Below, piece by piece: positions 18,003 to 28,275 of a stretch of DNA of 64,000 nucleotides; positions within the stretch are counted from its first letter, which is position 1, and every line of letters starts with the position of its first letter. The translations under genes were made by a program, and so were the position numbers. Source of the DNA: Clostridia bacterium (GTDB lineage: Bacteria; Bacillota; Clostridia; UBA1212; DUPL01). A model generated the notes under the pieces. That model saw nothing but the letters and a program-made list of their open reading frames with translations. It was not told the DNA's origin and did no database searches. The stretch covers positions 1-64,000 of the forward strand of contig JBMNIW010000011.1 in the NCBI GenBank assembly GCA_050951325.1, written 5' to 3'.

Positions 18003-19559
18003 TTATGTCGGAATCAGTAGTTTCTGACCAGGTCTCAGCACATCCGGATTTGTCAGATTGTTTACATTCTGCAGGATGTTAAGAGGTGCGCTGTATCTCT
18101 TTGCAACCTTCCACAGAGTGTCACCCGGCTGAACCACATACAGGAGAATTGACGGCCTGTTGGTAAAGTCCTTGTCTGCTTCCTCGGGCATTCTTGCCTC
18201 CACTATTGTATTAATATGGTTGATGCATGCAACATCAAGCCTTACACTGATAGCAATCCTAAGTTCCAGTTCCTGTCCTGAAAGAATGCTGTAGCTGGTA
18301 TGACTGACATCCAGTTTGGCCTTGACCTCCGGATTATCCACATCAAAGTTTCTGTCAAAGGTCTGAGTGAATGGAATCTGCTGGGTGAAAGATGCAATCG
18401 GAGACTCCGGATCATCCGAGAGATACAGTACATTGCAGAAAACAAAGCCCTCTACCGTTGCAACTCCATCTTCCACAATCACATCCGCCTGGCCGATGGT
18501 TCCGTTAACATTAATGACCTCGGACATGTTTGGATCTTCTTCCGATTTGGATACTACCTCCTTGAGTACGAACTGGGTTGCCACATCGCCTATCTTTAAC
18601 GGGGTGTCTATCACTTCATAGTCCAAATCAAAGTTCTTGGTAAGTGAGTAGGCGTCAGTCAGAACCTCACATTCTTTTGTGACATATCCGCTAAGAACAA
18701 AATCTATGTTCGCATCCAAGGCAAGCATTCTCTTGTCTCCATCCGCGTCTTCCACCACATCCGCCCTGAAATCCGCTATGTTTGTCTTTACATCATATGT
18801 AACTTCAGGTTCATCATCCTCAATTTGCAGATTCTGCGTAAAAGGAATCTGGTTCTCCAACACTTGTGTTGACTGGTTTGCATCATCCGCTACATACAGG
18901 GCACAAATGTTCAAATATCCTTTTACCTGGACTTTTTCATCATCTACAGAGAAGTTCACATCAGAAAGCCTTGCATCCGTTCTTAACAGATCCAGAACCG
19001 GAGACTTTCCAGAGGGGATTTCAATAACGTCGGATATGGACAGGTTGGCATTCTCTGTTCTGCAAACACTGCTAATCCTGAAGGTATTCCTCTGAGCCTG
19101 AATGTCATCAAGACCGTCAAGTCCTGCTGTAATTCCCTTCTCCTCCGTATTGTACAGCTCAGGCTCAATCTTCACCACTGTCCTGAAAGCCAGTTTTCTA
19201 CTGTTTATGAATGTGTGCTCCGTATGCTCTATGATGCATTCAACCCTGCATTCGGTATTGGAATCGACTTCAGGGGCGTCAAAGGTTGCTGAGTGATTTG
19301 CCATTGTGGAGAAGGATTTGATTGAAGCCTCCGCATTATCCGCCAAATACAGAATTCTGTATTTTATACTGAAATCCACTGTCACCTGATCTTTCATTAC
19401 AGATACTCTGTCCACTGTTGAAACACCGTCTGCCACAAGTACCTTCAACATGTCAGGCAAGGCATCTGGAACGATGCAGTCGTGCTCATATACAGAACGG
19501 CTTGGGGGTACCAAAATCACCTTTGTCATTTTTACATAATCTTTTATCAACTCTATCAT
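18003..19559 (-). CDS. SPOCS (DUF3794) + LysM spore coat morphogenetic protein, SipL-like
   Basis: DCIVPDALPDM N-terminus, repeated SPOCS-like units, C-terminal LysM YVVQPGDTLWKVAKRY. Confidence 0.9.
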   Translation of the reverse strand: MIELIKDYVKMTKVILVPPSRSVYEHDCIVPDALPDMLKVLVADGVSTVDRVSVMKDQVTVDFSIKYRILYLADNAEASIKSFSTMANHSATFDAPEVDSNTECRVECIIEHTEHTFINSRKLAFRTVVKIEPELYNTEEKGITAGLDGLDDIQAQRNTFRISSVCRTENANLSISDVIEIPSGKSPVLDLLRTDARLSDVNFSVDDEKVQVKGYLNICALYVADDANQSTQVLENQIPFTQNLQIEDDEPEVTYDVKTNIADFRADVVEDADGDKRMLALDANIDFVLSGYVTKECEVLTDAYSLTKNFDLDYEVIDTPLKIGDVATQFVLKEVVSKSEEDPNMSEVINVNGTIGQADVIVEDGVATVEGFVFCNVLYLSDDPESPIASFTQQIPFTQTFDRNFDVDNPEVKAKLDVSHTSYSILSGQELELRIAISVRLDVACINHINTIVEARMPEEADKDFTNRPSILLYVVQPGDTLWKVAKRYSAPLNILQNVNNLTNPDVLRPGQKLLIPT

Positions 19560-19598
19560 TATCCGTCCTCCTAGCTGAGTATTTTCATGGGTTTGTAA

Positions 19599-19629
19599 AT
19601 TTATATGCCGAGAAAAATATTCTTATGCA
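19599..19629 (-). promoter_or_regulatory. Putative sigma-E promoter
   Basis: GCATA-N16-CATATAAAT upstream of the SipL-like gene. Confidence 0.55.
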
Positions 19630-19634
19630 TCCTC

Positions 19635-20711
19635 TCAGTCAAAGATTGAAAGTATTTTCTCGATACTCTTTCTTTCCTCTTCAATTTCCTTAAGTTTCTC
19701 AATACAGCTTTTTTCACACCAGCTCTTCCTTGAGTTGTAATACCTGTTTACATTCCTCCAAAACTTCTGTGGAAACATAAGTAAAAGCTTTAGAATATAC
19801 ATTTCATCCTTGGACATTGGCCTTACAGAGTTGTAATGATCAAGGATGAATTTCGCATCATTGATTGACCAGTGGCTTTTTCTAAGTTTTCTTCTCAAGA
19901 AGTTTGCCACATCATAAACTGGTAGCTCAATTGCACAAAAATCAAAATTTGACACAAAGTCACCCATAGGCCCTGTAATTATATTGTGGGCCGTATAGTC
20001 TCTGTGGCATATTGTACCTTCCAAACAGGCTTCCTTAACAATTTCATCGTAAGCGGACGCTTCCAAATCTTGAATAACCCTTTCTGCAAGTGCTATGTAA
20101 TTGTCACAAACCAGAAGGTATTCAAGCTCAAACTTTCCTCTGTTCCTTAAAGCAACCTTCTTGTACCTTATCAGATCATTCAGTCTTTTTTTGAAAAGGC
20201 CTGGCGTCTGTCCAATGGAACACCTTACCCACAAATTCACTTTATCCTCAATGAGTTTTCCGTCTCCAAACTCAGCCATCTTCAAGCCATCAATTGAACA
20301 AACACCCTTAAGCATCTTTTCTCTTGCATATTCTAAATTGAATCCCTTGGATGCAATATGCATTCTTCCAAGCATGTATGATGCTTCCGAAAGATGCTTG
20401 TAATTGTCAAAACTCATTTCACAACCTTGAATAACGGGAGTAAGTGTGTAAAAACCACCGCTTAGTCTGACAAAAGGCATGTCATGCTTGTTTTTTATGT
20501 AAGAACAAACATTGCCAAATCCGTTGTTTTTTAGATGTTCCACTGCAATAAATGTGTAGTATGTCCTTGCAGGTGGTCCCTTTATTGGCCTTAGTATGTA
20601 TCTGGAAGCGTCCTTTGCTGTAATGTTGTACGAGTCTCTTGTCTGTACTAATCTGTCAACCTTGATTCCGTAAGCCTCTTCTATTATTCTAACATCATCC
20701 GAAGTCATCAT
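19635..20711 (-). CDS. CotS-family spore coat protein (kinase-like fold)
   Basis: CHRDYTAHN, NFDFC..ELPVYD, LMFPQKFW. Confidence 0.88.
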   Translation of the reverse strand: MMTSDDVRIIEEAYGIKVDRLVQTRDSYNITAKDASRYILRPIKGPPARTYYTFIAVEHLKNNGFGNVCSYIKNKHDMPFVRLSGGFYTLTPVIQGCEMSFDNYKHLSEASYMLGRMHIASKGFNLEYAREKMLKGVCSIDGLKMAEFGDGKLIEDKVNLWVRCSIGQTPGLFKKRLNDLIRYKKVALRNRGKFELEYLLVCDNYIALAERVIQDLEASAYDEIVKEACLEGTICHRDYTAHNIITGPMGDFVSNFDFCAIELPVYDVANFLRRKLRKSHWSINDAKFILDHYNSVRPMSKDEMYILKLLLMFPQKFWRNVNRYYNSRKSWCEKSCIEKLKEIEEERKSIEKILSIFD

Positions 20712-20740
20712 TTTACCCCCTTATAGAAATGACAGCTAGA

Positions 20741-20772
20741 ATAATATATGTACAAAACTATTCATGTATGAC
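20741..20772 (-). promoter_or_regulatory. Putative mother-cell (sigma-E/K) promoter
   Basis: GTCATA-N16-CATATATTAT upstream of the CotS-family gene. Confidence 0.55.
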
Positions 20773-20801
20773 AGATTAGACAATCAAGTAATATGATTTT
20801 G

Positions 20802-21703
20802 TCATATGACTGTTTTAATCATTTGGAAATATTTCAAGTTCTTTTTATAGAATTCTCGACATTTGGACCATAACAAGATATTTACTGAAGTTCCTTTTCT
20901 GTTGACTTCCTTGTCTACTATCAAGCAAAGATTGCTTTTCTCCATTTTCTTTTTAATCTGTTCCGTTTGCCCGACATGGCACATAACCAAAAGCTTGCCA
21001 TTGTCAGATAAATTGGGAAGAAGATTGTAAAAAGCTTCAATTGCAACGGGTGTGTAATTTTCTGAAAAAGGTATTTCTGTAACCACCGCATCCACCTTTT
21101 TGTCGCCCAAATCAACTTTTCTTGCATCGCACGAATAATGCTTGTCCGCATACATCGACAGTCCAGGCTCCAACAACTTGTCAATATCAGCACTAATCAA
21201 ATACAGCGAAGGATTTATGAGTTTTGCGGCGTGTAAAATTCCTCCGCCTCCTGCAAAAGGATCCATGAGAGTCTGTATTGTATAAGGTTTTACCAGGTTT
21301 ACCATCATTTTTGCATCCTCAAGGGGAAGTCCCCTTCTTCCGGCTTCGCTTCCGTCACCCCTGTATCCCTTTACATGCTTTACAGTGCCATCCTCCTGAT
21401 ATATTGCAAACATTCTGTTGTTGACAGACTGTTTCTGGTACTGTTTCTTGCATTCAATGTAGAAAGGAATTACATTAAAACGCCGTCCTTTCCAAAAGTA
21501 TTCATTCACACTCTTTATCTCGTTTGTGGCGCCAGGCTTTTCCAATGTGAAGTCCAGTTTGTAATATTTGTCGCAGTATCCTACAGTTTTCAGAATACTT
21601 ACCAGTTCGCCATCCAATGTCTTGGGAACAAAAAATGAAACAAGACCGCTGACATCCCCCAAGGGGCCGTTAAAGACAAATATACCACCCACTTGACTTA
21701 TTA
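20802..21703 (-). pseudogene. 3' part (297 codons) of a split SAM-dependent methyltransferase (Trm11/RlmL-like m2G class)
   Basis: MDPFAGGGG motif I, ADID, TEIPF motif IV-like; interrupted at GACTTATTA by the integrative element. Confidence 0.85.
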
Positions 21704-21752
21704 TCCAGTGGGCAATACGCCTGTGGGGGTTCAAATCCCCTCCCTCGCACCA
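21704..21752 (+). other. 3' half of a tRNA (probably tRNA-Leu) carried in attP; not a complete tRNA gene
   Basis: TCCAG anticodon-stem strand, long variable arm, GGGGGTTCAAATCCCCT T-arm, CCCTCGC-A-CCA end; no 5' half upstream. Confidence 0.85.
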
Positions 21753-21812
21753 ATGAAATCAAGGGTTCCAGGGTTTTTGTAAATCCTGGAATTAAATATA
21801 AGACGGTCTAAA

Positions 21813-21833
21813 TAATGCAGTTTTAATGCAGTT
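21813..21833 (+). repeat. Putative integrase arm-type sites
   Basis: TAATGCAGTT twice at 11-bp period between attL and the integrase stop. Confidence 0.6.
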
Positions 21834-21839
21834 GGGTAC

Positions 21840-21871
21840 AAAAAAATAGCAGGGGCGCCATCCCTGCTATT
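21840..21871 (-). terminator. Integrase terminator
   Basis: AATAGCAGGG-GCGCCAT-CCCTGCTATT hairpin with a U-tract on the minus strand. Confidence 0.7.
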
Positions 21872-21893
21872 GTAACTAAGTAACTAAAGGTTC

Positions 21894-23090
21894 TTATCTA
21901 TTGCCTTGCGTTTTCGCATGGCTTTTTTCTTTACTTAACAAGCCGTTCAATGTAGCCGCTGCCGCTTCCTGTAATCCTGGGGTTAAGTGGCTATATAGGT
22001 CAAGGGTCATGGTAATACTGCTGTGTCCCAGCCGCTCCTGCACAACCTTCGGATGGACGCCACGGGCCAGCAGTAAGCTCGCATGTGTGTGCCGCAAGTC
22101 ATGCAGCCGTACTTTTGGCAATCCGGCCTTCTCCAAGTGTCGTTGAAACCGTTTAGTAAATTCCCTTGGGTCTAGGGGGGTCCCGTCCTCCTTGCAGAAC
22201 ACAAGGCCGTGGTCCTGGTAGGCTTCGCCCGCGCGGAGCTTCTCTTGCGCCTGCCGCTTCCTGTGGGCCTTCAATTCCCGGATTGCATCATCGGTTAGGA
22301 CAATGCTTCTCATGCCGCTCTTGCTCTTGGTTGTTTCCTCCAGAGTTAAGCCGTCTTTTAAGACTAACAATTGCCGCTGGACAGTTATAACGCCATTCTC
22401 AATGTCAACACAGTCCCAGCACAAGCCTAACAGTTCACCGCGCCGCAGGCCTGTAGTTGCCGCTAGGACGTAGGCCGCAAAAAGCCGGTCCTCTTTAGCC
22501 GCTTCAAAAAATTTAAGTAATTCGTCTTCAGTTAATGGCCGCATCTGCTTGTTTTTAACGGTAGGGGGACTTGTAGCATCCGCAACGTTCCGGGGCAGTA
22601 GCCCTTCTTTGACTGCTTGCTGCAGGGCCTGGCGAATGATAGCATGTAAATAACGCACCATCCTTGTTGACAGGCCGCCTTTGCCGTCAGCCCGGCCTTT
22701 TTCCAGCTTCTCATTATAGAAAGACTGTAACATGTTGGCCTGTAGCTTCGCCATCGGGATTTTCCCAAGACCAGGCTTAATGTGAACATTAATCAACGTT
22801 TCGTAACTCTCATAAGTACTAGGTTTAAGCTGTCCCTTTTTATAGCCGGTAAGCCACTTGTCCAGCCACTCCCCGAAGGTAGTCTGCGCCGGTTCAACAA
22901 ATGTTCCGTTTCTCACTTCCTGCAGGACCTGGGCCATCTTTTCCACAACCTCTTTGCGGGTCTTGCCGTAGAAGCTTTTGCGTTTCAGCTTCCCTGTTAC
23001 CGGGTCATAGCCTATGCTTACCTGTCCTGCCCAGGTCCCGTCCTGCCGTTTATAGATGGTTCCTTCACCGTTACCACGCCGCTTGGCCAT
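21894..23090 (-). CDS. Tyrosine recombinase/integrase (phage, ICEBs1-like)
   Basis: MAKRRGNGEGTI start behind AGGAGG, TGLRRGELLGL, HDLRHTHAS, ERLGHSSITMTLDLYSH (R-H-R-H-Y set intact). Confidence 0.96.
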   Translation of the reverse strand: MAKRRGNGEGTIYKRQDGTWAGQVSIGYDPVTGKLKRKSFYGKTRKEVVEKMAQVLQEVRNGTFVEPAQTTFGEWLDKWLTGYKKGQLKPSTYESYETLINVHIKPGLGKIPMAKLQANMLQSFYNEKLEKGRADGKGGLSTRMVRYLHAIIRQALQQAVKEGLLPRNVADATSPPTVKNKQMRPLTEDELLKFFEAAKEDRLFAAYVLAATTGLRRGELLGLCWDCVDIENGVITVQRQLLVLKDGLTLEETTKSKSGMRSIVLTDDAIRELKAHRKRQAQEKLRAGEAYQDHGLVFCKEDGTPLDPREFTKRFQRHLEKAGLPKVRLHDLRHTHASLLLARGVHPKVVQERLGHSSITMTLDLYSHLTPGLQEAAAATLNGLLSKEKSHAKTQGNR

Positions 23091-23151
23091 GATTAACTTG
23101 CCTCCTCCTTTTCTGATGTACTTCTCAAAGCATAGGGCCTCCTTTCTGTTA

Positions 23152-23171
23152 ATGCTTAAGATATTAAGCAT
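23152..23171. promoter_or_regulatory. Putative operator upstream of the integrase
   Basis: ATGCTTAA-GATA-TTAAGCAT inverted repeat in an AT-rich divergent intergenic region. Confidence 0.45.
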
Positions 23172-23193
23172 ATTATACAATATGTTAATTGTA

Positions 23194-23585
23194 ATGTCAA
23201 TAGCCGAAGAGCTTGAGGCCGTTGAGCGGGAGCGGGCGAGGAGATGTATGCTTGCTACCCAGAATAACAAGTCTGGGAAGGCTATAGCAGCGGTGGAAAC
23301 ATTTCCACCGCAGGAATTAGGCAAAACCCGCGACAAAGTAGCCGCCGCCGTAGGCCTTGGTTCCGGTCGCACCTACGACAAGGGGAGCGAACGGACCTAA
23401 CTTCTGCCAAACGTTTGGCAGAAGTTGAGCGCGTCCCCCAGAGATCGACTCAAAAGATAGCTGAAGCTGTAGGACTTGGCAGTCACGAAACATATCGCAA
23501 AGCCAACAAGAAAGGACGCAAAAAAAATGCTCCAGCAGCTGCTAGGGCAAGAGCCGGAGCAGAAGGACTGGGGCAGGCATATTGA
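23194..23585 (+). pseudogene. Two tandem fragments of phage ParB-like HTH genes, each containing a palindrome
   Basis: VETFPPQ..GKTRDKVAAAVGLGSGRTYDK, then in another frame QGERTDLTSAKRLAEV..STQKIAEAVGLGSHETYRKA. Confidence 0.65.
23399..23426. repeat. Perfect 28-bp palindrome
   Basis: AACTTCTGCCAAAC|GTTTGGCAGAAGTT. Confidence 0.95.
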
Positions 23586-23596
23586 GGAAGCCAGGG

Positions 23597-24034
23597 CTAA
23601 AGGGTTGGCGGGGCCGTGGTAGAACGTGAGCTTTTAATTTCATTGATGATGTTTATTTCTATTTCTTCGTTTTTCTGTGCTAATCGATGCCCAATAAAAA
23701 ATGCATCAACTAAAGCCCAAAGAGCCGGTATAATCAACAGTGAAAAGCCCGCTGGCCCCAAAAAAATTACTTCTTCAGCAGTGGAAGCTGTATCTATGAC
23801 GTAGGCATTCCACAATGTTGCAACAAACAATGAAAGCAAAAACACAATAGTTTGTGCTATAGCACGACCTTTATCGCCAAGGTAATATCTATGTCCTCCT
23901 ATAATGCCTGTAAACCACCAAAGCAACCATAACACTACACGACTTTTTTTGCGTCTTCGGAATTCGGATTCAAGCATTGATAATTCTTGGGAACTTAAGT
24001 CTTTTTTCATGGAAAGTAAATCGAGCAATTGCAT
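23597..24034 (-). CDS. TM2-domain membrane protein
   Basis: KKSRVVLWLLWWFTGIIGGHRYYLG motif, WALVDAFFI. Confidence 0.9.
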   Translation of the reverse strand: MQLLDLLSMKKDLSSQELSMLESEFRRRKKSRVVLWLLWWFTGIIGGHRYYLGDKGRAIAQTIVFLLSLFVATLWNAYVIDTASTAEEVIFLGPAGFSLLIIPALWALVDAFFIGHRLAQKNEEIEINIINEIKSSRSTTAPPTL

Positions 24035-24221
24035 TACCCCCTTTGGTTAATTATGGTTATACAAATATTCTACAAAACAAGGCGAATTCCTGCCTTATTT
24101 TTTTATGCAAGGTGGTGAACACATATGCTAGTCGGCGAAGTATTCGCCCGTATGGGCCTTGACATTTGTTGCCTTTTTGAGCAAAATACTGTATTATTGA
24201 AGCAAGAAAGGAGGATGCCTA

Positions 24222-24425
24222 ATGATTAAGTGTAACTTGTCGCTATTAATGGGTAAATATAGGGAAACCATTCAAAGTGTTCACGAAAAAACAGGCTTAA
24301 ATCGGAATACGATTTCAAACCTTTACCATGAGAAAGTGAAACGTATCGACTTCGATACACTGGAGAAGCTATGTAAACTGTTCAATTGTCAGCCAGGCGA
24401 CATCTTGGAATATATACCAGATTAG
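24222..24425 (+). CDS. Small XRE/Cro-like HTH regulator
   Basis: TGLNRNTISNLY..RIDFDTLEKLCKLFNCQPGDILEY; strong RBS. Confidence 0.92.
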   Translation: MIKCNLSLLMGKYRETIQSVHEKTGLNRNTISNLYHEKVKRIDFDTLEKLCKLFNCQPGDILEYIPD

Positions 24426-24461
24426 TAAACACTTTACTATCTTAATAGAGCGAAAGAAGGG

Positions 24462-24881
24462 TTGATTATTATGGGCACCGTAATAAAGCTAACTTGTTCT
24501 AAATGCAAATTAGAAAGTGATAAATTATATATTGGAAAAGGTTCTGATGACCGCCAATGCTATGGGGTAGCATGGTGCCCCCAGTGTGCAGAATTCACCA
24601 CTCCATTAGTGCCTGATGGATTGTTTAAAGAAACAGTGAACGATGATAACAGCCTTGAAACTATCTACCTTCTAGATGACAGAAGCATAGCTTGTCCACC
24701 TGATTACATTTCTTCCTGGTTCCAACCTCTTTGCTTAAGTTGCTGTCAGGGAGTATCTCTTTTTGATATGGAAAACAAACCCTGTCCAATTTGCGGCGCA
24801 AAAATGACTGAAAAAGCTATTGGAATTTGGAAATTGCCAATACCCACTAAAGAAGGTACTCCATCGAATAAAGATGATTGA
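24462..24881 (+). CDS. Hypothetical zinc-ribbon protein
   Basis: Four CxxC motifs (CSKC, CPQC, CLSC, CPIC). Confidence 0.65.
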   Translation: MIIMGTVIKLTCSKCKLESDKLYIGKGSDDRQCYGVAWCPQCAEFTTPLVPDGLFKETVNDDNSLETIYLLDDRSIACPPDYISSWFQPLCLSCCQGVSLFDMENKPCPICGAKMTEKAIGIWKLPIPTKEGTPSNKDD

Positions 24882-24895
24882 AGGAGTGGTTGTCA

Positions 24896-25078
24896 ATGAG
24901 TAAAAAGCTGAGTTTAATTGAACGCTGGGAGATTGACGATGCCCAGGCGGGAATAGTCATTTGGCGATGTAATAGCTGCCGCAATCACCGAGGCAATAAT
25001 GAATGTTCGGTATATGGGATTATTCCCAAAGAAATAGCGGAGATGAAAAAAACATGCAATAAATTTGAAGATCAATGA
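24896..25078 (+). CDS. Small Cys-rich hypothetical protein
   Basis: AAGGAG RBS; CNSCRNH..CSVYGIIPKEI..C pattern seen in phage-associated small proteins. Confidence 0.55.
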   Translation: MSKKLSLIERWEIDDAQAGIVIWRCNSCRNHRGNNECSVYGIIPKEIAEMKKTCNKFEDQ

Positions 25079-25150
25079 AATATGTAGTAGTAACACTTTT
25101 AAACCCCCAGATAGTATTAGTTTCTAGACATGGGGTATACTATTTCGGGG

Positions 25151-25567
25151 TTATATTCCCAACCTATGAGCTAGCAGGGTAAGAATAACAGCCTGATACC
25201 GGTAAAAATTGCTTTCACTCATACCCAACTCCTGGGCTACTTTCCATATGGGATAACCGTCAAAGTAGTGTAGTTCAATGAGTTTCCGCTTTTCTTCATC
25301 AAGGTAGGCCAGCAGGTCTTCAACGGCTTGGACGTAAAAGCGGGTCTTACTCCACATCTCTTCCAGCCGTAACAGCTTAAAAGCCTGGTTGGCCGTTCGG
25401 TCTCCTATTGCACTCACTCGAACAGGTTCCTGCCAAGTAGCGACAGGCACTTTTTCAGCTATGGCCTGCTTTTCTTCCTCCAGGGCCGCAAGTTCTTTTT
25501 TCATTAACGGATATTGGCGCAATATAGCTTGGCAAAACCGCCTTACAGGTGTCGTCAGTTTATTCAA
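25151..25567 (-). CDS. RinA/ArpU-like phage late transcriptional activator
   Basis: ILRQYP, coiled coil, GDRTA, C-terminal sigma-region-4-like HTH (KVAQELGMSESNFYR). Confidence 0.75.
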   Translation of the reverse strand: MNKLTTPVRRFCQAILRQYPLMKKELAALEEEKQAIAEKVPVATWQEPVRVSAIGDRTANQAFKLLRLEEMWSKTRFYVQAVEDLLAYLDEEKRKLIELHYFDGYPIWKVAQELGMSESNFYRYQAVILTLLAHRLGI

Positions 25568-25659
25568 AAGACAGCCCTCTTTTTGATACGCTATCTAGTG
25601 GGACGCTAAAAAGCCTGTATTTACAAGCCTTACAGCCTTCGTAATGCAAAAGTAATGCA

Positions 25660-26271
25660 TCACCATCCTGCCGGTTTAGGAACAGGGGTCATTTTTTTGC
25701 GCCTCTCCCCATACCAGCAGGCCAAGGCCACCGCTAACACAAGGTCGTCATGTATTCCTTCCCGCCAGGCTTCATAACTGTCATGGGCCGTCTTGACGTT
25801 AATTTTTACCTTGAAGTTAAGCAGTTCTTCCACCAGCACCGGGGCCAGCTTCAGGCCGCCAGCCACCTTAAGCCTGCCGGATTGAAACAGCACTTGCAGG
25901 TTTGTCACCAAGTCCCGTTTTGGTACGTGGTAGCCTCCATTGCCGACAGTAACCGTGTTTCCCCCAGTTATCGTTATCGCTACTGGCCGCAGGCCGGCTT
26001 TACGAAACAGGTCCACCACAGGGGCACCAACGCCGGTAGCGTCCACCACCAGGGCCGTCCTGTTTAATAGCTGGGGAGACTGCATCAAATCCTGGACTTT
26101 CTCAACAATGGCCGGGTATGGGGTTCCCAGCTTTGGCCGCTCCAAGTGTCTAATGTGATATTGCTCTCTGGGTAAACTATAGTAAAAATGTTTACGCTCA
26201 ATAACCGTCAAGGCCGTGTAGTCCTGTGCCTGGCCTAAGTCAAGGCCAATATAAAAGTTATACACTGTCAT
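25660..26271 (-). CDS. Stand-alone terminase large-subunit nuclease-like (RNase H fold) protein
   Basis: IGLDLGQAQDYTA, VVDATGVGAPV, HDDLVLAVALA; GAGGAGG RBS before ATG 26271. Confidence 0.8.
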   Translation of the reverse strand: MTVYNFYIGLDLGQAQDYTALTVIERKHFYYSLPREQYHIRHLERPKLGTPYPAIVEKVQDLMQSPQLLNRTALVVDATGVGAPVVDLFRKAGLRPVAITITGGNTVTVGNGGYHVPKRDLVTNLQVLFQSGRLKVAGGLKLAPVLVEELLNFKVKINVKTAHDSYEAWREGIHDDLVLAVALACWYGERRKKMTPVPKPAGW

Positions 26272-26284
26272 CGCCTCCTCATTA

Positions 26285-26359
26285 GACGATATTTGGACGA
26301 TATCTGGACGATATCTGGACGATATCTGGACGATACCGCAAAGTTCATCGTCCAGATAA
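26285..26359. repeat. 11-bp tandem repeat (GACGATATCTG x4.6) plus an inverted copy; iteron-like
   Basis: Units at 26285, 26296, 26307, 26318 and 26329 (partial); inverted ATCGTCCAGATA near 26348. Confidence 0.85.
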
Positions 26360-26375
26360 AAACCCAGCACAAATG

Positions 26376-28085
26376 CAATGTCATTAACTTAAGAAACTCG
26401 TTTTAAAGAACCCTAACTTATTCGGTTAGGGTCTTTTTATCACATTTTCAGTTTTACATTTTAAAACAAATATGATAAAATAATACAGAGTTGTTAAATT
26501 TTAAATATTATTTAATACTCTCGATTTTGCTAGAAATGGGGAGTATAAGATGTTAAAATTATTATCTAAGATTAGATTAGAAAAAGACCTGGAGTATGCG
26601 CAGAAAGAAGAGTTCAAAAAAACATATAGGCAAAAAAGCACTGACTTCACAAGAAAAAGGAAGTTAACTATGTTTGATATCATTCTATCTACCATTACTC
26701 GAGTTGGTTTTTCATTGAAACTTGAAATCAGGAGATATTTAAAGATGAAACAAGATGACAAAACTGTATCAAAAGTAGCGTATTTAAAACAACGTTTAAA
26801 GCTTGATCCCAAAGCTTTTCTCGCTTTGAATAGCTTTCATTTAAAGAATTTCTACAACGAAGAGACAGCAAGAACAATTAAGAATTATTTAGTTCTCGCT
26901 GTTGACGGTAGTAATATTACTATACCCACAAATAAAGAAACTCTAGAATTATATGGTAACTCCTCGGTGCCATCTGCAAAGCCTACTGCACAGATTGGTC
27001 TTTCTTGTATATACGATGTGTGTAATGAATTTATTTTAGATATATCTATTAACAGGAATAATTTTGACGAACGTGCTGCTGCCGAGAAGAATATTGATAA
27101 CATTGCTGAAATTATTGAAGACAAAGCCTTTATCGTTTTGTTTGATAGAGGTTATCCTTCAATTGAAAATATGCTTAATCGATTCGAGAAGGGACAAAAA
27201 TTTCTCATGAGGTTAAGCTCTTCGCAGTTCAAAAGAGAGCAATCGTCTATGACTTCCGATGATGAAATTATTGAGATAAAATTTGATCAGACCCGTATTA
27301 ACCCTTATCGAAATACAAAGTTTGCAGAGAAACTACGTACTGTTGGTTCTATGTTTGTAAGATTTGTACGCGTGCATTTATCTTCCGGTGAAACTGAGTA
27401 TCTTGCTACTAATTTAAGCCAAGAAGAGTTCAATACCAAAGAAATTTCGGACTTGTATTTTATGCGATGGGCAATAGAAACAGTATATGATACCTTAAAA
27501 AACAAATTAGAAATCGAAAATTTTACAGGAACAAAACCGTTACTTATAGAACAAGATATATATGCGACAGTATATCTGTGTAACATTATCCAAGATGTTA
27601 TTCGAGATGCCGAAGAATCGTTAAAGCGTGAGGGAAAACTTAACAAATACAAACATGTTATGACTATAAATAAAAACTTCGCAATCGGAGTAATGAGGGA
27701 TGAACTAATAGGATTTGTAGCAACTGATAGTGATGTTGAACGCAGAATCTTATTCGAGAAAGTCATAAAAGAAATACAATCAGAACTTATACCTGTAAGA
27801 AAAGGGCGTTCTTTAAACAGACACAAAAATGCAAAAAGCAAGAGGTTCTTTAATAATATTAAAAGAAACTCCTAGTTTTCCATATTCCTAATATTTACAT
27901 AGCAAGAGTTATTGTTATAAACTATAACTTAACTTTTTTATGTCATTTTTTTAAATCTGTAACAAGACAAAGATAAAGTGTATTAGAAGGATCAATAAAA
28001 TACCGTGCCAGTTAATTTAAGATTTGAAATAAACTAAGAGATCGCAACAAAACATGTATTGCGATCTCTTAAGTTAATGACATTG
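26376..28085 (+). mobile_element. IS4-family element
   Basis: Perfect 19-bp terminal IRs CAATGTCATTAACTTAAGA; no flanking target duplication. Confidence 0.92.
26550..27875 (+). CDS. IS4-family transposase
   Basis: AVDGS, FDRGY and Y..RW.IE...K (YREK) motifs. Confidence 0.95.
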   Translation: MLKLLSKIRLEKDLEYAQKEEFKKTYRQKSTDFTRKRKLTMFDIILSTITRVGFSLKLEIRRYLKMKQDDKTVSKVAYLKQRLKLDPKAFLALNSFHLKNFYNEETARTIKNYLVLAVDGSNITIPTNKETLELYGNSSVPSAKPTAQIGLSCIYDVCNEFILDISINRNNFDERAAAEKNIDNIAEIIEDKAFIVLFDRGYPSIENMLNRFEKGQKFLMRLSSSQFKREQSSMTSDDEIIEIKFDQTRINPYRNTKFAEKLRTVGSMFVRFVRVHLSSGETEYLATNLSQEEFNTKEISDLYFMRWAIETVYDTLKNKLEIENFTGTKPLLIEQDIYATVYLCNIIQDVIRDAEESLKREGKLNKYKHVMTINKNFAIGVMRDELIGFVATDSDVERRILFEKVIKEIQSELIPVRKGRSLNRHKNAKSKRFFNNIKRNS

Positions 28086-28139
28086 CGTAAAATCGGGCTT
28101 TTATAAATTAGGCTAAACTAGGTTAAATGAAGAAGGTAA

Positions 28140-28275
28140 GACTTATTACTGTGGACAATTCAAAAACGGCAAGACGCTTTGCCTTTTTCCTGGAAGTTCT
28201 GATTCTGCACACTAATAGATCATACTTGTCCACGTACTTGTCTATCTCGCTCTTTGACACCTTGACATATTTCAA
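28140..28275 (-). pseudogene. 5' part (45 codons) of the split methyltransferase
   Basis: GGAGG RBS + TTG; MKYVKVSKSEIDKYVDKYDLLVCRIRTSRKKAKRLAVFELSTVIS ends in the att core, in frame with QVGGIF of the 3' part. Confidence 0.85.

What the first reader, a model, noticed from the sequence alone, without database searches (positions are those of the whole stretch)
20802..28275. Integrative element with a tRNA-derived attP splits a methyltransferase gene in frame; precise excision would restore it
Seen: GACTTATTA flanks the element (21695-21703, 28140-28148). Removing the element and one repeat fuses ...FELSTVIS to QVGGIFVF..., giving one 342-aa SAM-methyltransferase with its own RBS. The element carries a tRNA 3' half next to the core, the hallmark of integrases that target a tRNA anticodon loop (here probably tRNA-Leu, expected core GACTTAAAA). 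Yet both junctions read GACTTATTA, the protein-gene sequence. Known: gene-splitting elements that act as switches (skin in sigK, SPbeta in spsM) use serine recombinases. Inference: a tRNA-targeting tyrosine integrase has been retargeted to a coding anticodon-loop mimic. The integrase is intact while the cargo has decayed, so it may be kept as an on/off switch. It could equally be a plain secondary-site insertion.
Basis: partly seen in the sequence, partly recalled or inferred. Interest (0 to 1): 0.78.

Follow-up and report, generated by a model that had tools for sequence, protein, structure and literature searches.

The report
Stray mobile element splits methyltransferase gene
A small virus-like mobile element that normally plugs into a leucine tRNA gene has instead landed inside a methyltransferase gene, broken it and then decayed there; it is a well-documented natural case of a known kind of accident, not a shown genetic switch.

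Summary
A 6,445-bp insert (21704-28148), bounded by GACTTATTA, splits a TRM11-like methyltransferase gene in frame. A metagenome contig (L004) has the same neighbourhood with the uninterrupted 342-aa gene, and 63 of 63 full-length homologues carry the N-terminal part.

The insert is the rump of a phage-satellite-like element. Its full-length relative L009 is about 11.6 kb and encodes primase, terminase, RinA and integrase. This tyrosine integrase family sits at tRNA anticodon loops; 7 relatives lie beside complete tRNA-Leu genes. A host IS4 element has removed about 7 kb and the outer part of one att arm.

- The empty site reads GACTTAATA, so the junctions are not the gene's own sequence. Excision would give Leu44Ile; Ile occurs in 0 of 63 homologues.
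- The site is a poor tRNA mimic. The genome holds 1,009 equal or better sites, and the host's own tRNA-Leu is free.
- A sibling element splits a U32 peptidase gene in the same way.

Best reading: a trapped secondary-site insertion, as shown experimentally for ICEBs1. Nothing shows a regulated switch: no RDF was found and one arm is truncated. The gene does lie beside spore-coat genes, and one contig break hints at a second left neighbour at the core.

The parts
28141..28275 (-). 5' fragment of the methyltransferase gene (45 codons, TTG start, own RBS). The ORF runs on for 5 codons into the element, to 28123.
   Evidence: It is identical to residues 1-45 of intact alleles P0066 and P0002 except L44I.
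28140..28148 (+). attR core: GA plus the 7-nt overlap CTTATTA
   Evidence: The P-side TAAGA next to the overlap is conserved in L009.
28087..28139 (+). Remnant (53 bp) of the element's P arm. It starts in the right half of a terminator hairpin.
   Evidence: Homologous to the far ends of the L009 and L006 elements.
26375..28086 (+). Host IS4-family insertion sequence (1,712 bp, 20-bp perfect inverted repeats, transposase at 26550-27875). No target duplication at this copy.
   Evidence: Further whole or partial copies at 96-99.9% identity on 3 other contigs of the genome.
26285..26339 (+). Five tandem copies of an 11-bp unit (GACGATATCTG)
   Evidence: One laid run shows extra letters put in here (table 4).
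25660..26271 (-). Terminase large-subunit nuclease-domain ORF (Terminase_6C). The ATPase part is missing.
   Evidence: L009 has both parts.
25151..25567 (-). RinA-family (sigma-70 region 4-like) phage late-gene regulator
   Evidence: TIGR01636, 41 bits, cut-off 31.9.
24222..25078 (+). Cro/C1-type HTH gene (24222-24425) and two small cysteine-rich ORFs (24462-24881, 24878-25078; variable cargo)
   Evidence: The HTH gene is 96-99% conserved in L009, the two ORFs are not. A variant in run X14 skips 24426-25233 (table 5).
23597..24034 (-). TM2-domain membrane protein (variable cargo)
   Evidence: Contigs in three runs join 23201 to 24165 without it (tables 5 and 5c).
23182..23585 (+). Two small ORFs divergent from the integrase, sharing an internal motif. 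No family match.
   Evidence: About 95% conserved in L009.
21894..23090 (-). Tyrosine integrase, 398 aa, with arm-binding, SAM-like and catalytic domains
   Evidence: PF00589 100 bits, PF14659, PF14657. Relatives at 88-93% match over the full length.
21814..21833 (+). Two direct copies of AATGCAGTT, 11 bp apart: candidate arm-type integrase sites in the P' arm
   Evidence: The pair is conserved at the same place in L005, L006, L007, L009, L023 and L025. The function is inferred.
21704..21753 (+). Element-borne 3' half of a tRNA-Leu (start of the P' arm)
   Evidence: The identical half is in L015.
21695..21703 (+). attL core: GA plus the overlap CTTATTA
20802..21695 (-). 3' fragment of the methyltransferase gene (297 codons plus stop). 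The database ORF of 310 aa starts inside the tRNA half.

Best explanation
This is a fossil of a secondary-site integration. A roughly 10-12-kb phage-satellite-like element came in from another, more GC-rich host. It carried a lambda-type tyrosine integrase whose normal target is the anticodon stem-loop of a tRNA-Leu gene, and its attP holds the tRNA from the loop to the 3' end. It recombined with a loosely similar 17-bp site inside codons 42-47 of a TRM11-like methyltransferase gene, instead of with a tRNA. That split the gene into a 45-codon and a 297-codon piece. Later a host IS4 element landed 53 bp from the right-hand core, and about 7 kb was lost (primase, terminase ATPase, the outer P arm). 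The element can no longer replicate or be packaged, and it probably excises poorly if at all. Shown: the boundaries, the empty allele, the family's tRNA-Leu habit, the losses, and the recurrence of such insertions in siblings. Inferred: the order of events, the arm-type sites, and poor excision. Unexplained: both cores carry a T (21701, 28146) that is in neither the empty allele nor tRNA-Leu loops. I think it most likely (about 0.4) that the incoming attP already had the overlap CTTATTA. The alternatives are a rare Ile44 recipient allele, or a later change made uniform at both ends by repair or by rounds of excision and re-entry.
For: Empty site and synteny: L004.

The junctions are real. Five distinct 310-aa chimeric ORFs on 25 contigs from four sources begin with the translated tRNA half. 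Contigs X1 record 8 and X12 record 15 bridge attR (table 8).

Family target. I read past the integrase stop in 14 relatives at 68% identity or more. Seven adjoin complete tRNA-Leu genes (CAA x4, CAG x2, TAA x1). Two adjoin tRNA pieces cut by contig ends. One adjoins tRNA-Lys and one tRNA-Val. Two show a tRNA-Leu 3' half joined to non-tRNA DNA. One shows no tRNA.

In L009, L010 and L011 the direct repeats run from 2-3 nt before the anticodon loop to the tRNA 3' end (58, 47 and 47 nt). In L009 two mismatches sit in the variable arm, at positions that would pair, so the half beside the integrase differs from the one at the far end.

The window's right end is homologous to the P arms of L009 and L006.

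Foreign origin: GC is 48-56% across the integrase against 31-39% just outside the insert, and no host tRNA-Leu matches the carried half.

Decay: L009 is collinear with the window but also has primase, a possible TerS and the TerL ATPase. This IS copy has no target duplication, and further whole or partial copies lie on 3 other contigs.

Recurrence: the L006 sibling (integrase 91%) splits a U32 peptidase gene. The two halves match Pfam profile positions 2-86 and 83-232, with an 11-bp repeat at both ends.

Precedent: ICEBs1 targets a 17-bp stem-loop in tRNA-Leu. It enters protein genes when it strays and then excises poorly (PMC3715440, passages).
Against: The host's own tRNA-Leu(TAA) and tRNA-Leu(CAA) cores match a native-type core far better: 2 and 1 mismatches of 17, against 6 for the methyltransferase site. 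No second integrase of this family was found in the genome, which is 96% complete. A purely accidental miss therefore needs explaining.

A one-step integration with unlike overlaps should leave unlike cores at the two ends (stated in PMC3715440). Here, and in L006, the two cores are identical.

The split allele is common in its lineage: 25 contigs against 5 for the closest intact alleles of cluster 2, though the contigs are not independent. It occurs with two C-terminal allele types, and both gene pieces and the integrase are still open. That fits retention as well as recent spread.

The gene lies directly upstream of a CotS-family gene and a SipL/LysM spore-coat gene. This is the kind of place where excision switches are known.
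Confidence: 0.8

Rival explanations
1. Regulated switch. The rump element is kept because its integrase excises it precisely, for example in the mother cell during sporulation, to rebuild the methyltransferase gene as skin, SPbeta, gin and yin do for their genes.
For: In-frame reconstitution is possible, and the two 7-nt overlaps are identical, so attL x attR would meet no heterology. The integrase is intact while the rest has decayed. The neighbours are spore-coat genes (CotS family, 249 bits; SipL). The split allele is frequent. Weak hint: in the deepest run, contig X14 record 22 starts exactly at 28140, the first base of the core. In a word-graph assembly that suggests a second left neighbour at that point (table 8; the reading is my inference).
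Against: No RDF was found. The excisionase-like HTH_17 ORF next to the integrase in L006 has no counterpart in the window or the genome. The P arm is cut 53 bp from the core; in L009 and L006 a pair of TAATGCA repeats, like the pair in the P' arm, lies about 125-145 bp out. From recall, lambda-type excision needs P-arm sites. Excision would give Ile44, which occurs in 0 of 63 homologues. The methyltransferase is a rare accessory gene: 0 of 39 genomes of the order and 2 of 398 of the class. It is not a known sporulation gene. Published sporulation switches use serine recombinases (PMC5595907, passages).
Confidence: 0.07
2. Retargeting by a changed overlap (nested within the best explanation). 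Before it entered, the element's attP overlap had changed from the tRNA loop CTTAAAA to CTTATTA. That made tRNA-Leu a worse partner and this gene a better one.
For: T at overlap position 5 is at both junctions. It is absent from the empty allele and from all 10 distinct intact 342-aa sequences in the two clusters. With CTTATTA the host tRNA-Leu(TAA) loop has 2 overlap mismatches and the gene site 1. With CTTAAAA the counts are 0 and 1. This would explain why the free tRNA was missed. Near-identical siblings carry different overlaps (CAA, CAG and TAA loops; CTGGAAA in L006), so the overlap does change in this family.
Against: No free attP or tRNA-bound copy with this overlap was found. L015, which has the same P' arm, reads AAA before TCCAG. 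One mismatch would remain, so identical ends still need repair or re-entry. 461 sites in the genome carry the exact overlap.
Confidence: 0.35
3. The integrase protein itself has evolved a new specificity for this coding site.
For: None beyond the location.
Against: Relatives at 88-93% full-length identity (and 98-100% over C-terminal pieces) sit at tRNA-Leu genes. The site shares only 1 of 5 bases with the right-hand core arm.
Confidence: 0.03
4. Assembly chimera: the element belongs to another organism and was joined to this contig by mistake.
For: The element interior is 10-40 times deeper than the right flank in some runs, for example about 1,300-1,900 against 44 in X14. Siblings from other organisms are therefore abundant in these communities (table 2).
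Against: Both junction ORFs recur in independent assemblies: 25 contigs for the 310-aa ORF and 2 for the 50-aa ORF. Contigs bridge attR. The two gene pieces fit in frame against L004.
Confidence: 0.01

Closest known systems
ICEBs1 insertions at secondary attachment sites in Bacillus subtilis (Menard and Grossman 2013, PMC3715440; passages read)
   Same: A tyrosine integrase whose primary site is a 17-bp stem-loop (5-bp arms, 7-bp spacer) in a tRNA-Leu gene. When it strays it enters protein-coding genes at sites with 2-12 mismatches, and it excises poorly from them.
   Different: ICEBs1 is a conjugative element and those insertions were made in the laboratory in a strain without attB. This one is a natural, fixed, decayed insertion of a satellite-like element in a genome whose tRNA-Leu sites are free, and both ends carry the same overlap.
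Sporulation gene-intervening elements: skin (sigK), SPbeta (spsM), gin (gerE), yin (yabG) (PMC4191935, PMC5595907, PMC10747680; passages read)
   Same: A decayed phage-related element splits a gene in frame, keeps its recombinase, and lies among sporulation genes.
   Different: Those use serine recombinases with an RDF, and excision has been shown experimentally. Here the recombinase is a tyrosine integrase, no RDF was found, one arm is truncated, and excision is untested.
Lambda secondary attachment sites and site-affinity (saf) mutants (recalled, not read here)
   Same: Integration at sites that resemble the core, and changes in the overlap that alter site preference.
   Different: That was shown genetically for lambda. 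Here it is only inferred from one odd base.
Phage satellites / phage-inducible chromosomal islands (recalled as a class)
   Same: The full-length relative L009 is about 11.6 kb with integrase, primase, terminase genes and a RinA-type regulator, and no capsid or tail gene was recognised among its ORFs.
   Different: No helper phage, induction or packaging is known. It carries a large terminase in two ORFs rather than the usual small one. The window copy has lost most of this.
Integrases that target the tRNA anticodon loop (sublocation class described by Williams 2002; recalled)
   Same: The repeat runs from just before the anticodon loop to the tRNA 3' end, and the element supplies the 3' half.
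   Different: In the window only the element-borne half is present. The partner is a protein gene.

Membership tests
Tyrosine recombinase / phage integrase (PF00589) | Catalytic domain match above the family threshold | tested here: met
   PF00589 scores 100.1 bits (cut-off 27.1), with PF14659 and PF14657 N-terminal domains.
Tyrosine recombinase / phage integrase (PF00589) | Catalytic residues R, K, H-x-x-R, H/W and Y are present | tested here: inconclusive
   Read by eye in the ORF: LRRGE, HDLRHTHAS and LGHSSITMTLDLYSH. The motif assignment is from recall and no structure-based alignment was made.
Anticodon-loop tRNA-targeting integrative elements | Direct repeat from the anticodon loop to the tRNA 3' end, with the integrase next to the rebuilt tRNA | tested here: met
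   Met in relatives L009 (58 nt), L010 and L011 (47 nt). In the window only the 9-bp core is repeated, and the carried tRNA half is at 21704-21753.
Anticodon-loop tRNA-targeting integrative elements | Integrated in a tRNA gene | tested here: not met
   No tRNA 5' half lies at the junction. The partner is the methyltransferase gene.
Secondary-site insertion (ICEBs1 type) | An empty allele exists and the target only partly resembles the primary core | tested here: met
   L004 is the empty allele. The site has 6 of 17 mismatches to a native-type core, 1 of them in the overlap, and 1,009 sites in the genome are equal or better.
Secondary-site insertion (ICEBs1 type) | Reduced excision from the secondary site | not testable with these tools
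   Needs cells or raw reads. Only contigs were available.
Developmental gene-intervening element (skin/SPbeta/gin/yin type) | Splits a gene so that excision restores the frame | tested here: met
   The split is in frame, but excision would leave an L44I change.
Developmental gene-intervening element (skin/SPbeta/gin/yin type) | The host gene is a mother-cell sporulation gene | tested here: inconclusive
   The neighbours are CotS-family and SipL genes. The methyltransferase itself is rare, and its expression is unknown.
Developmental gene-intervening element (skin/SPbeta/gin/yin type) | A recombinase plus an RDF encoded in the element | tested here: not met
   The integrase is present. There is no homologue of the L006 HTH_17 ORF, and no excisionase family hit among the element's ORFs. 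An unrecognised RDF cannot be excluded.
Developmental gene-intervening element (skin/SPbeta/gin/yin type) | Excision observed during development | not testable with these tools
   No culture and no raw reads.
Phage satellite (PICI-like) | About 10-15 kb with integrase, replication module and packaging gene(s), without virion structural genes | tested here: inconclusive
   L009 fits by gene content, but 5 of its 10 ORFs scanned have no family, and no helper or induction is known. The window copy has lost the primase and the terminase ATPase.
TRM11-family SAM-dependent methyltransferase | Match to a curated family model above its cut-off | tested here: not met
   UPF0020 scores 19-21 bits (cut-off 22.3), TIGR01177 36 bits (cut-off 317) and EmtA 24 bits (cut-off 625). 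The best solved relative is a tRNA m2,2G methyltransferase at E = 0.0014. The name comes from NCBI labels on homologues. It is a methyltransferase fold of unknown substrate.

The most novel reading that the evidence does not exclude
A lambda-type tyrosine integrase, left behind by a decayed phage satellite, serves as a developmental excision switch for a methyltransferase gene at the head of a spore-coat gene cluster. That would be the first sporulation-type gene-intervening element driven by a tRNA-targeting tyrosine recombinase. Its overlap would have been made uniform at both ends so that excision is clean.
Probability: 0.06. Interest if true: 0.75.

Novelty: new member of a known kind. Interest (0 to 1): 0.35.

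Why it matters
It gives a natural, fully bounded record of how a tRNA-targeting integrase goes astray and becomes trapped. The occupied site, the empty site, a full-length relative and a second independent case in a sibling element are all in hand. That is useful for understanding site choice by integrases used as genome-engineering tools.

The identical overlaps at both ends, and the one base that matches neither parent, raise a concrete and testable question. Does the overlap of such elements drift, letting them colonise new sites?

There is also a practical point. Public databases hold at least five 310-aa 'proteins' whose first 13 residues are a translated tRNA fragment, so annotators should treat them as pseudogene pieces.

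If the switch reading were true, it would widen the known mechanisms of developmental gene reconstitution in spore formers.

Tried and rejected
- ARAGORN on the window found 0 tRNAs. Rfam at E <= 1 gave only a chance U6 hit at 19773-19829. Neither detects a half tRNA.
- Exact-pattern scans of viral contigs for the carried tRNA half and for the P arm each gave 0 hits.
- Search for the native tRNA-Leu with this 3' half: among 5 genomes holding related loci, only L015 itself matched. 0 of 112 genomes of the class of L009's genome matched. The native host remains unknown.
- The only sign of a tRNA-bound copy with this P' arm is a 14-letter loose end before 21695 in run X15 that looks like a tRNA-Leu D-arm and anticodon stem (table 7). 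I could not see its overlap.
- Read laying (4 of the 24 listed runs, all Logan contigs) gave almost no cover on the left flank 19000-21568, and no joint from 21703 to 28149 was among the 11 joints listed. Contigs drop rare variants and 543 pieces were not shown, so this says nothing about excision.
- Phage-record tblastn with the integrase found 3,052 records, all below 60% identity, so it was uninformative.
- The methyltransferase was not found in 39 genomes of the order. It was found in 2 of 398 other genomes of the class, so relatives could not supply an empty site. The metagenome scan did.
- In one search the mismatch counts for the host tRNAs were taken one base out of register (my slip). 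They are replaced.
- The search of earlier findings returned nothing for this place and three only remotely related notes by sequence. None was used.
- Supplements of the papers were not open. Tables of att sites there might list further tyrosine-recombinase cases.

Full report
**What is there.** The 9-mer GACTTATTA stands at 21695-21703 and 28140-28148. On the minus strand a 45-codon ORF piece (28275..28141; TTG start, GGAGG upstream) and a 297-codon piece (21695..20805) read both copies of the repeat in the same frame. Taking out 6,445 bp therefore gives a 342-codon gene. Between the repeats lie, from left to right:
- the 3' half of a class-II tRNA (21704-21753)
- a 398-aa tyrosine integrase (21894..23090, minus strand)
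- small regulators and cargo ORFs
- a RinA-family regulator
- the nuclease half of a large terminase
- five 11-bp tandem repeats
- a 1,712-bp IS4-family element with perfect 20-bp inverted repeats
- a last 53 bp

**The split is real and the empty site exists.** A scan of metagenome contigs returned L004. It carries the same flanking genes around an uninterrupted 342-aa gene. Of 55 homologues found, most are 333-346 aa. In an alignment of 63 full-length sequences the N-terminal segment is always present, with E39 invariant.

The junctions are not an assembly artefact. The two protein clusters hold five distinct 310-aa ORFs on 25 contigs from NCBI, Logan, JGI and ENA. These ORFs begin with the translated tRNA half and then run into the methyltransferase. 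The 50-aa N-terminal ORF is on 2 contigs. Contigs of two runs bridge the right junction (table 8).

**What the element is.** GC is 48-56% over the integrase against 31-39% just outside the insert, and none of the host's five tRNA-Leu genes matches the carried half. The element therefore came from elsewhere.

Scans with the integrase gave 2 viral and 21 genomic loci. I could read past the integrase stop in 14 relatives at 68% identity or more:

| What lies past the integrase stop | Relatives |
|---|---|
| complete tRNA-Leu gene (CAA x4, CAG x2, TAA x1) | 7 |
| tRNA piece cut by a contig end (one shows GGGACTTAAAATCCC) | 2 |
| tRNA-Lys | 1 |
| tRNA-Val | 1 |
| tRNA-Leu 3' half joined to non-tRNA DNA | 2 |
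| no tRNA | 1 |

L009, L010 and L011 each hold both ends of the element. There the direct repeat runs from 2-3 nt before the anticodon loop to the tRNA 3' end (58, 47 and 47 nt). In L009 the two copies differ at two positions of the variable arm that would pair, so the half next to the integrase came with the element.

L009 is collinear with the window and about 11.6 kb long. It encodes a primase, a possible small terminase, a large terminase in two ORFs, the RinA-like regulator, the HTH gene and the integrase. No capsid or tail family was recognised, and 5 of the 10 ORFs scanned have no family. That is a phage-satellite-like make-up.

The last 53 bp of the window's insert are homologous to the far ends (P arms) of the L009 and L006 elements, including TAAGA or TAGGA next to the overlap.

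**Decay.** Compared with L009, the window lacks about 7 kb: the primase through to the terminase ATPase. The IS sits where the similarity stops, has no target duplication here, and has further whole or partial copies at 96-99.9% identity on 3 other contigs of the genome. It is therefore a host IS that entered later, with a deletion.

The deletion also removed the outer P arm. In L009 and L006 a pair of TAATGCA repeats lies about 125-145 bp from the core. It mirrors the pair AATGCAGTT at 21814 and 21825 in the P' arm, which is conserved in six relatives. The integrase has an arm-binding domain. I take these repeats to be arm-type sites; that is an inference.

1. The empty site reads CTTGA-CTTAATA-CTGTG (Leu44 = TTA), whereas both junctions read CTTATTA (Ile44). 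Leu stands at this column in 53 of 63 homologues and Ile in none. All 10 distinct intact 342-aa sequences in the two clusters, all of whose members were read, have Leu. The T is therefore tied to the insertion. It is also not what a tRNA-Leu(TAA) loop (CTTAAAA) would bring.
2. The site is a weak mimic. It has 6 of 17 mismatches to a native-type core, and only 1 of 5 bases matches in the right arm. 1,009 places in the genome are as good or better. The host's tRNA-Leu(TAA) and tRNA-Leu(CAA) have 2 and 1 mismatches, and no second integrase of this family is in the genome.
3. The event is not unique. In L006 (integrase 91% identical) a sibling splits a U32 peptidase gene. The N-terminal part (Pfam profile positions 2-86) lies next to the tRNA half. 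The C-terminal part (positions 83-232) lies on another contig behind the same P arm. An 11-bp repeat stands at both ends. L015, with the very same tRNA half as the window, also joins non-tRNA DNA.

**How it most likely happened.** The closest worked-out case is ICEBs1. Its primary site is a 17-bp stem-loop in a tRNA-Leu gene. Insertions into protein genes have 2-12 mismatches, and excision from them is reduced or lost (PMC3715440, passages). I read the window as the same kind of event in nature, followed by IS-mediated decay (confidence 0.8).

Two things remain open.
- That paper notes that unlike overlaps should leave unlike ends after replication. Here, and in L006, the ends are identical.
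- The T matches neither parent.

The simplest account (about 0.35-0.4) is that the incoming attP already carried CTTATTA. That would also explain why the free host tRNA-Leu was passed over: it would have 2 overlap mismatches against 1 for the gene site. Siblings with near-identical spacers carry CAA, CAG or TAA loops, so the overlap does change in this family. The alternatives are a rare Ile44 recipient allele, or a later change made uniform by repair or by rounds of excision and re-entry.

**The switch idea.**

In its favour:
- The frame is restorable and the overlaps are identical.
- The integrase is intact and the allele is common.
- The gene lies just upstream of a CotS-family gene (TIGR02906, 249 bits) and a SipL/LysM gene.
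- In the deepest run one contig begins exactly at 28140, which may mean a second left neighbour at the core (my inference).

Against it:
- No RDF was found, and the P arm is truncated.
- The rebuilt protein would carry Ile44.
- The methyltransferase is a rare accessory gene of unknown substrate. It appears in 0 of 39 genomes of the order and 2 of 398 of the class, and all family matches are below their cut-offs.
- The described sporulation switches use serine recombinases (PMC5595907, PMC10747680 and PMC4191935; passages).

I put it at 0.06-0.07. It needs cells or raw reads to decide.

**Verdict.** This is a new, unusually well-bounded member of a known kind (a trapped secondary-site insertion of a tRNA-targeting element), with one unexplained base and a low-probability but testable switch reading.

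Noticed in passing
window 26285-26339: Five tandem copies of an 11-bp unit lie just upstream of the terminase-nuclease ORF. One laid run shows extra letters put in here. They could be iterons or a slippage-prone tract.
   Followed up: no
window 26375-28086: An IS4-family element with 20-bp perfect inverted repeats and no target duplication at this copy. One further full-length copy and partial copies at 96-99.9% identity lie on contigs C4, C8 and C12, so it is or recently was active in this genome.
   Followed up: partly
L006 3290-3980 and L039 1080-1600: A sibling element (integrase 91%) splits a U32 peptidase gene of a Syntrophomonas MAG, with an 11-bp repeat at both ends. This is a second natural protein-gene hit by the family.
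   Followed up: yes
L015 460-700: The same tRNA-Leu 3' half as in the window is joined to non-tRNA DNA that carries a promoter-like TTGACA/TAAGAT pair. It could be a third secondary site or a chimeric short contig.
   Followed up: partly
L023 and L025, first 400 bases: Spacers nearly identical to window 21754-21890 sit next to different tRNA-Leu isoacceptors (CAG and CAA) with different 3' halves. The tRNA module of the att site is therefore swapped between very close elements.
   Followed up: partly
window 21569-26339 in runs X14, X15 and X12: The element interior is laid 10-40 times deeper than the right flank. Variants skip 23202-24164 (the TM2 gene, replaced by CAT, in three runs) or 24426-25233 (in run X14). 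Siblings with other cargo are abundant in digester communities.
   Followed up: no
database proteins P0067, P0068, P0069, P0072, P0073: Public 310-aa 'proteins' start with 13 residues that are a reverse-strand translation of the tRNA half and core. They are annotation artefacts of the split gene.
   Followed up: yes
L003 6001-7900: A relative's integrase (84% identical) is itself cut off after about residue 356 by unrelated DNA that carries an ORF on the other strand.
   Followed up: no
window 18003-20711: A spore-coat gene pair (a SipL/SPOCS protein with LysM, and a CotS-family kinase) lies directly downstream of the split methyltransferase on the same strand. The insertion may affect their transcription.
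   Followed up: partly
L034 2760-4013: In the only other genus of the class with this methyltransferase, the gene lies beside an AraC-type HTH fused to a phosphotransferase-like domain. The methyltransferase may be linked to CotS/APH-type kinases more generally.
   Followed up: no
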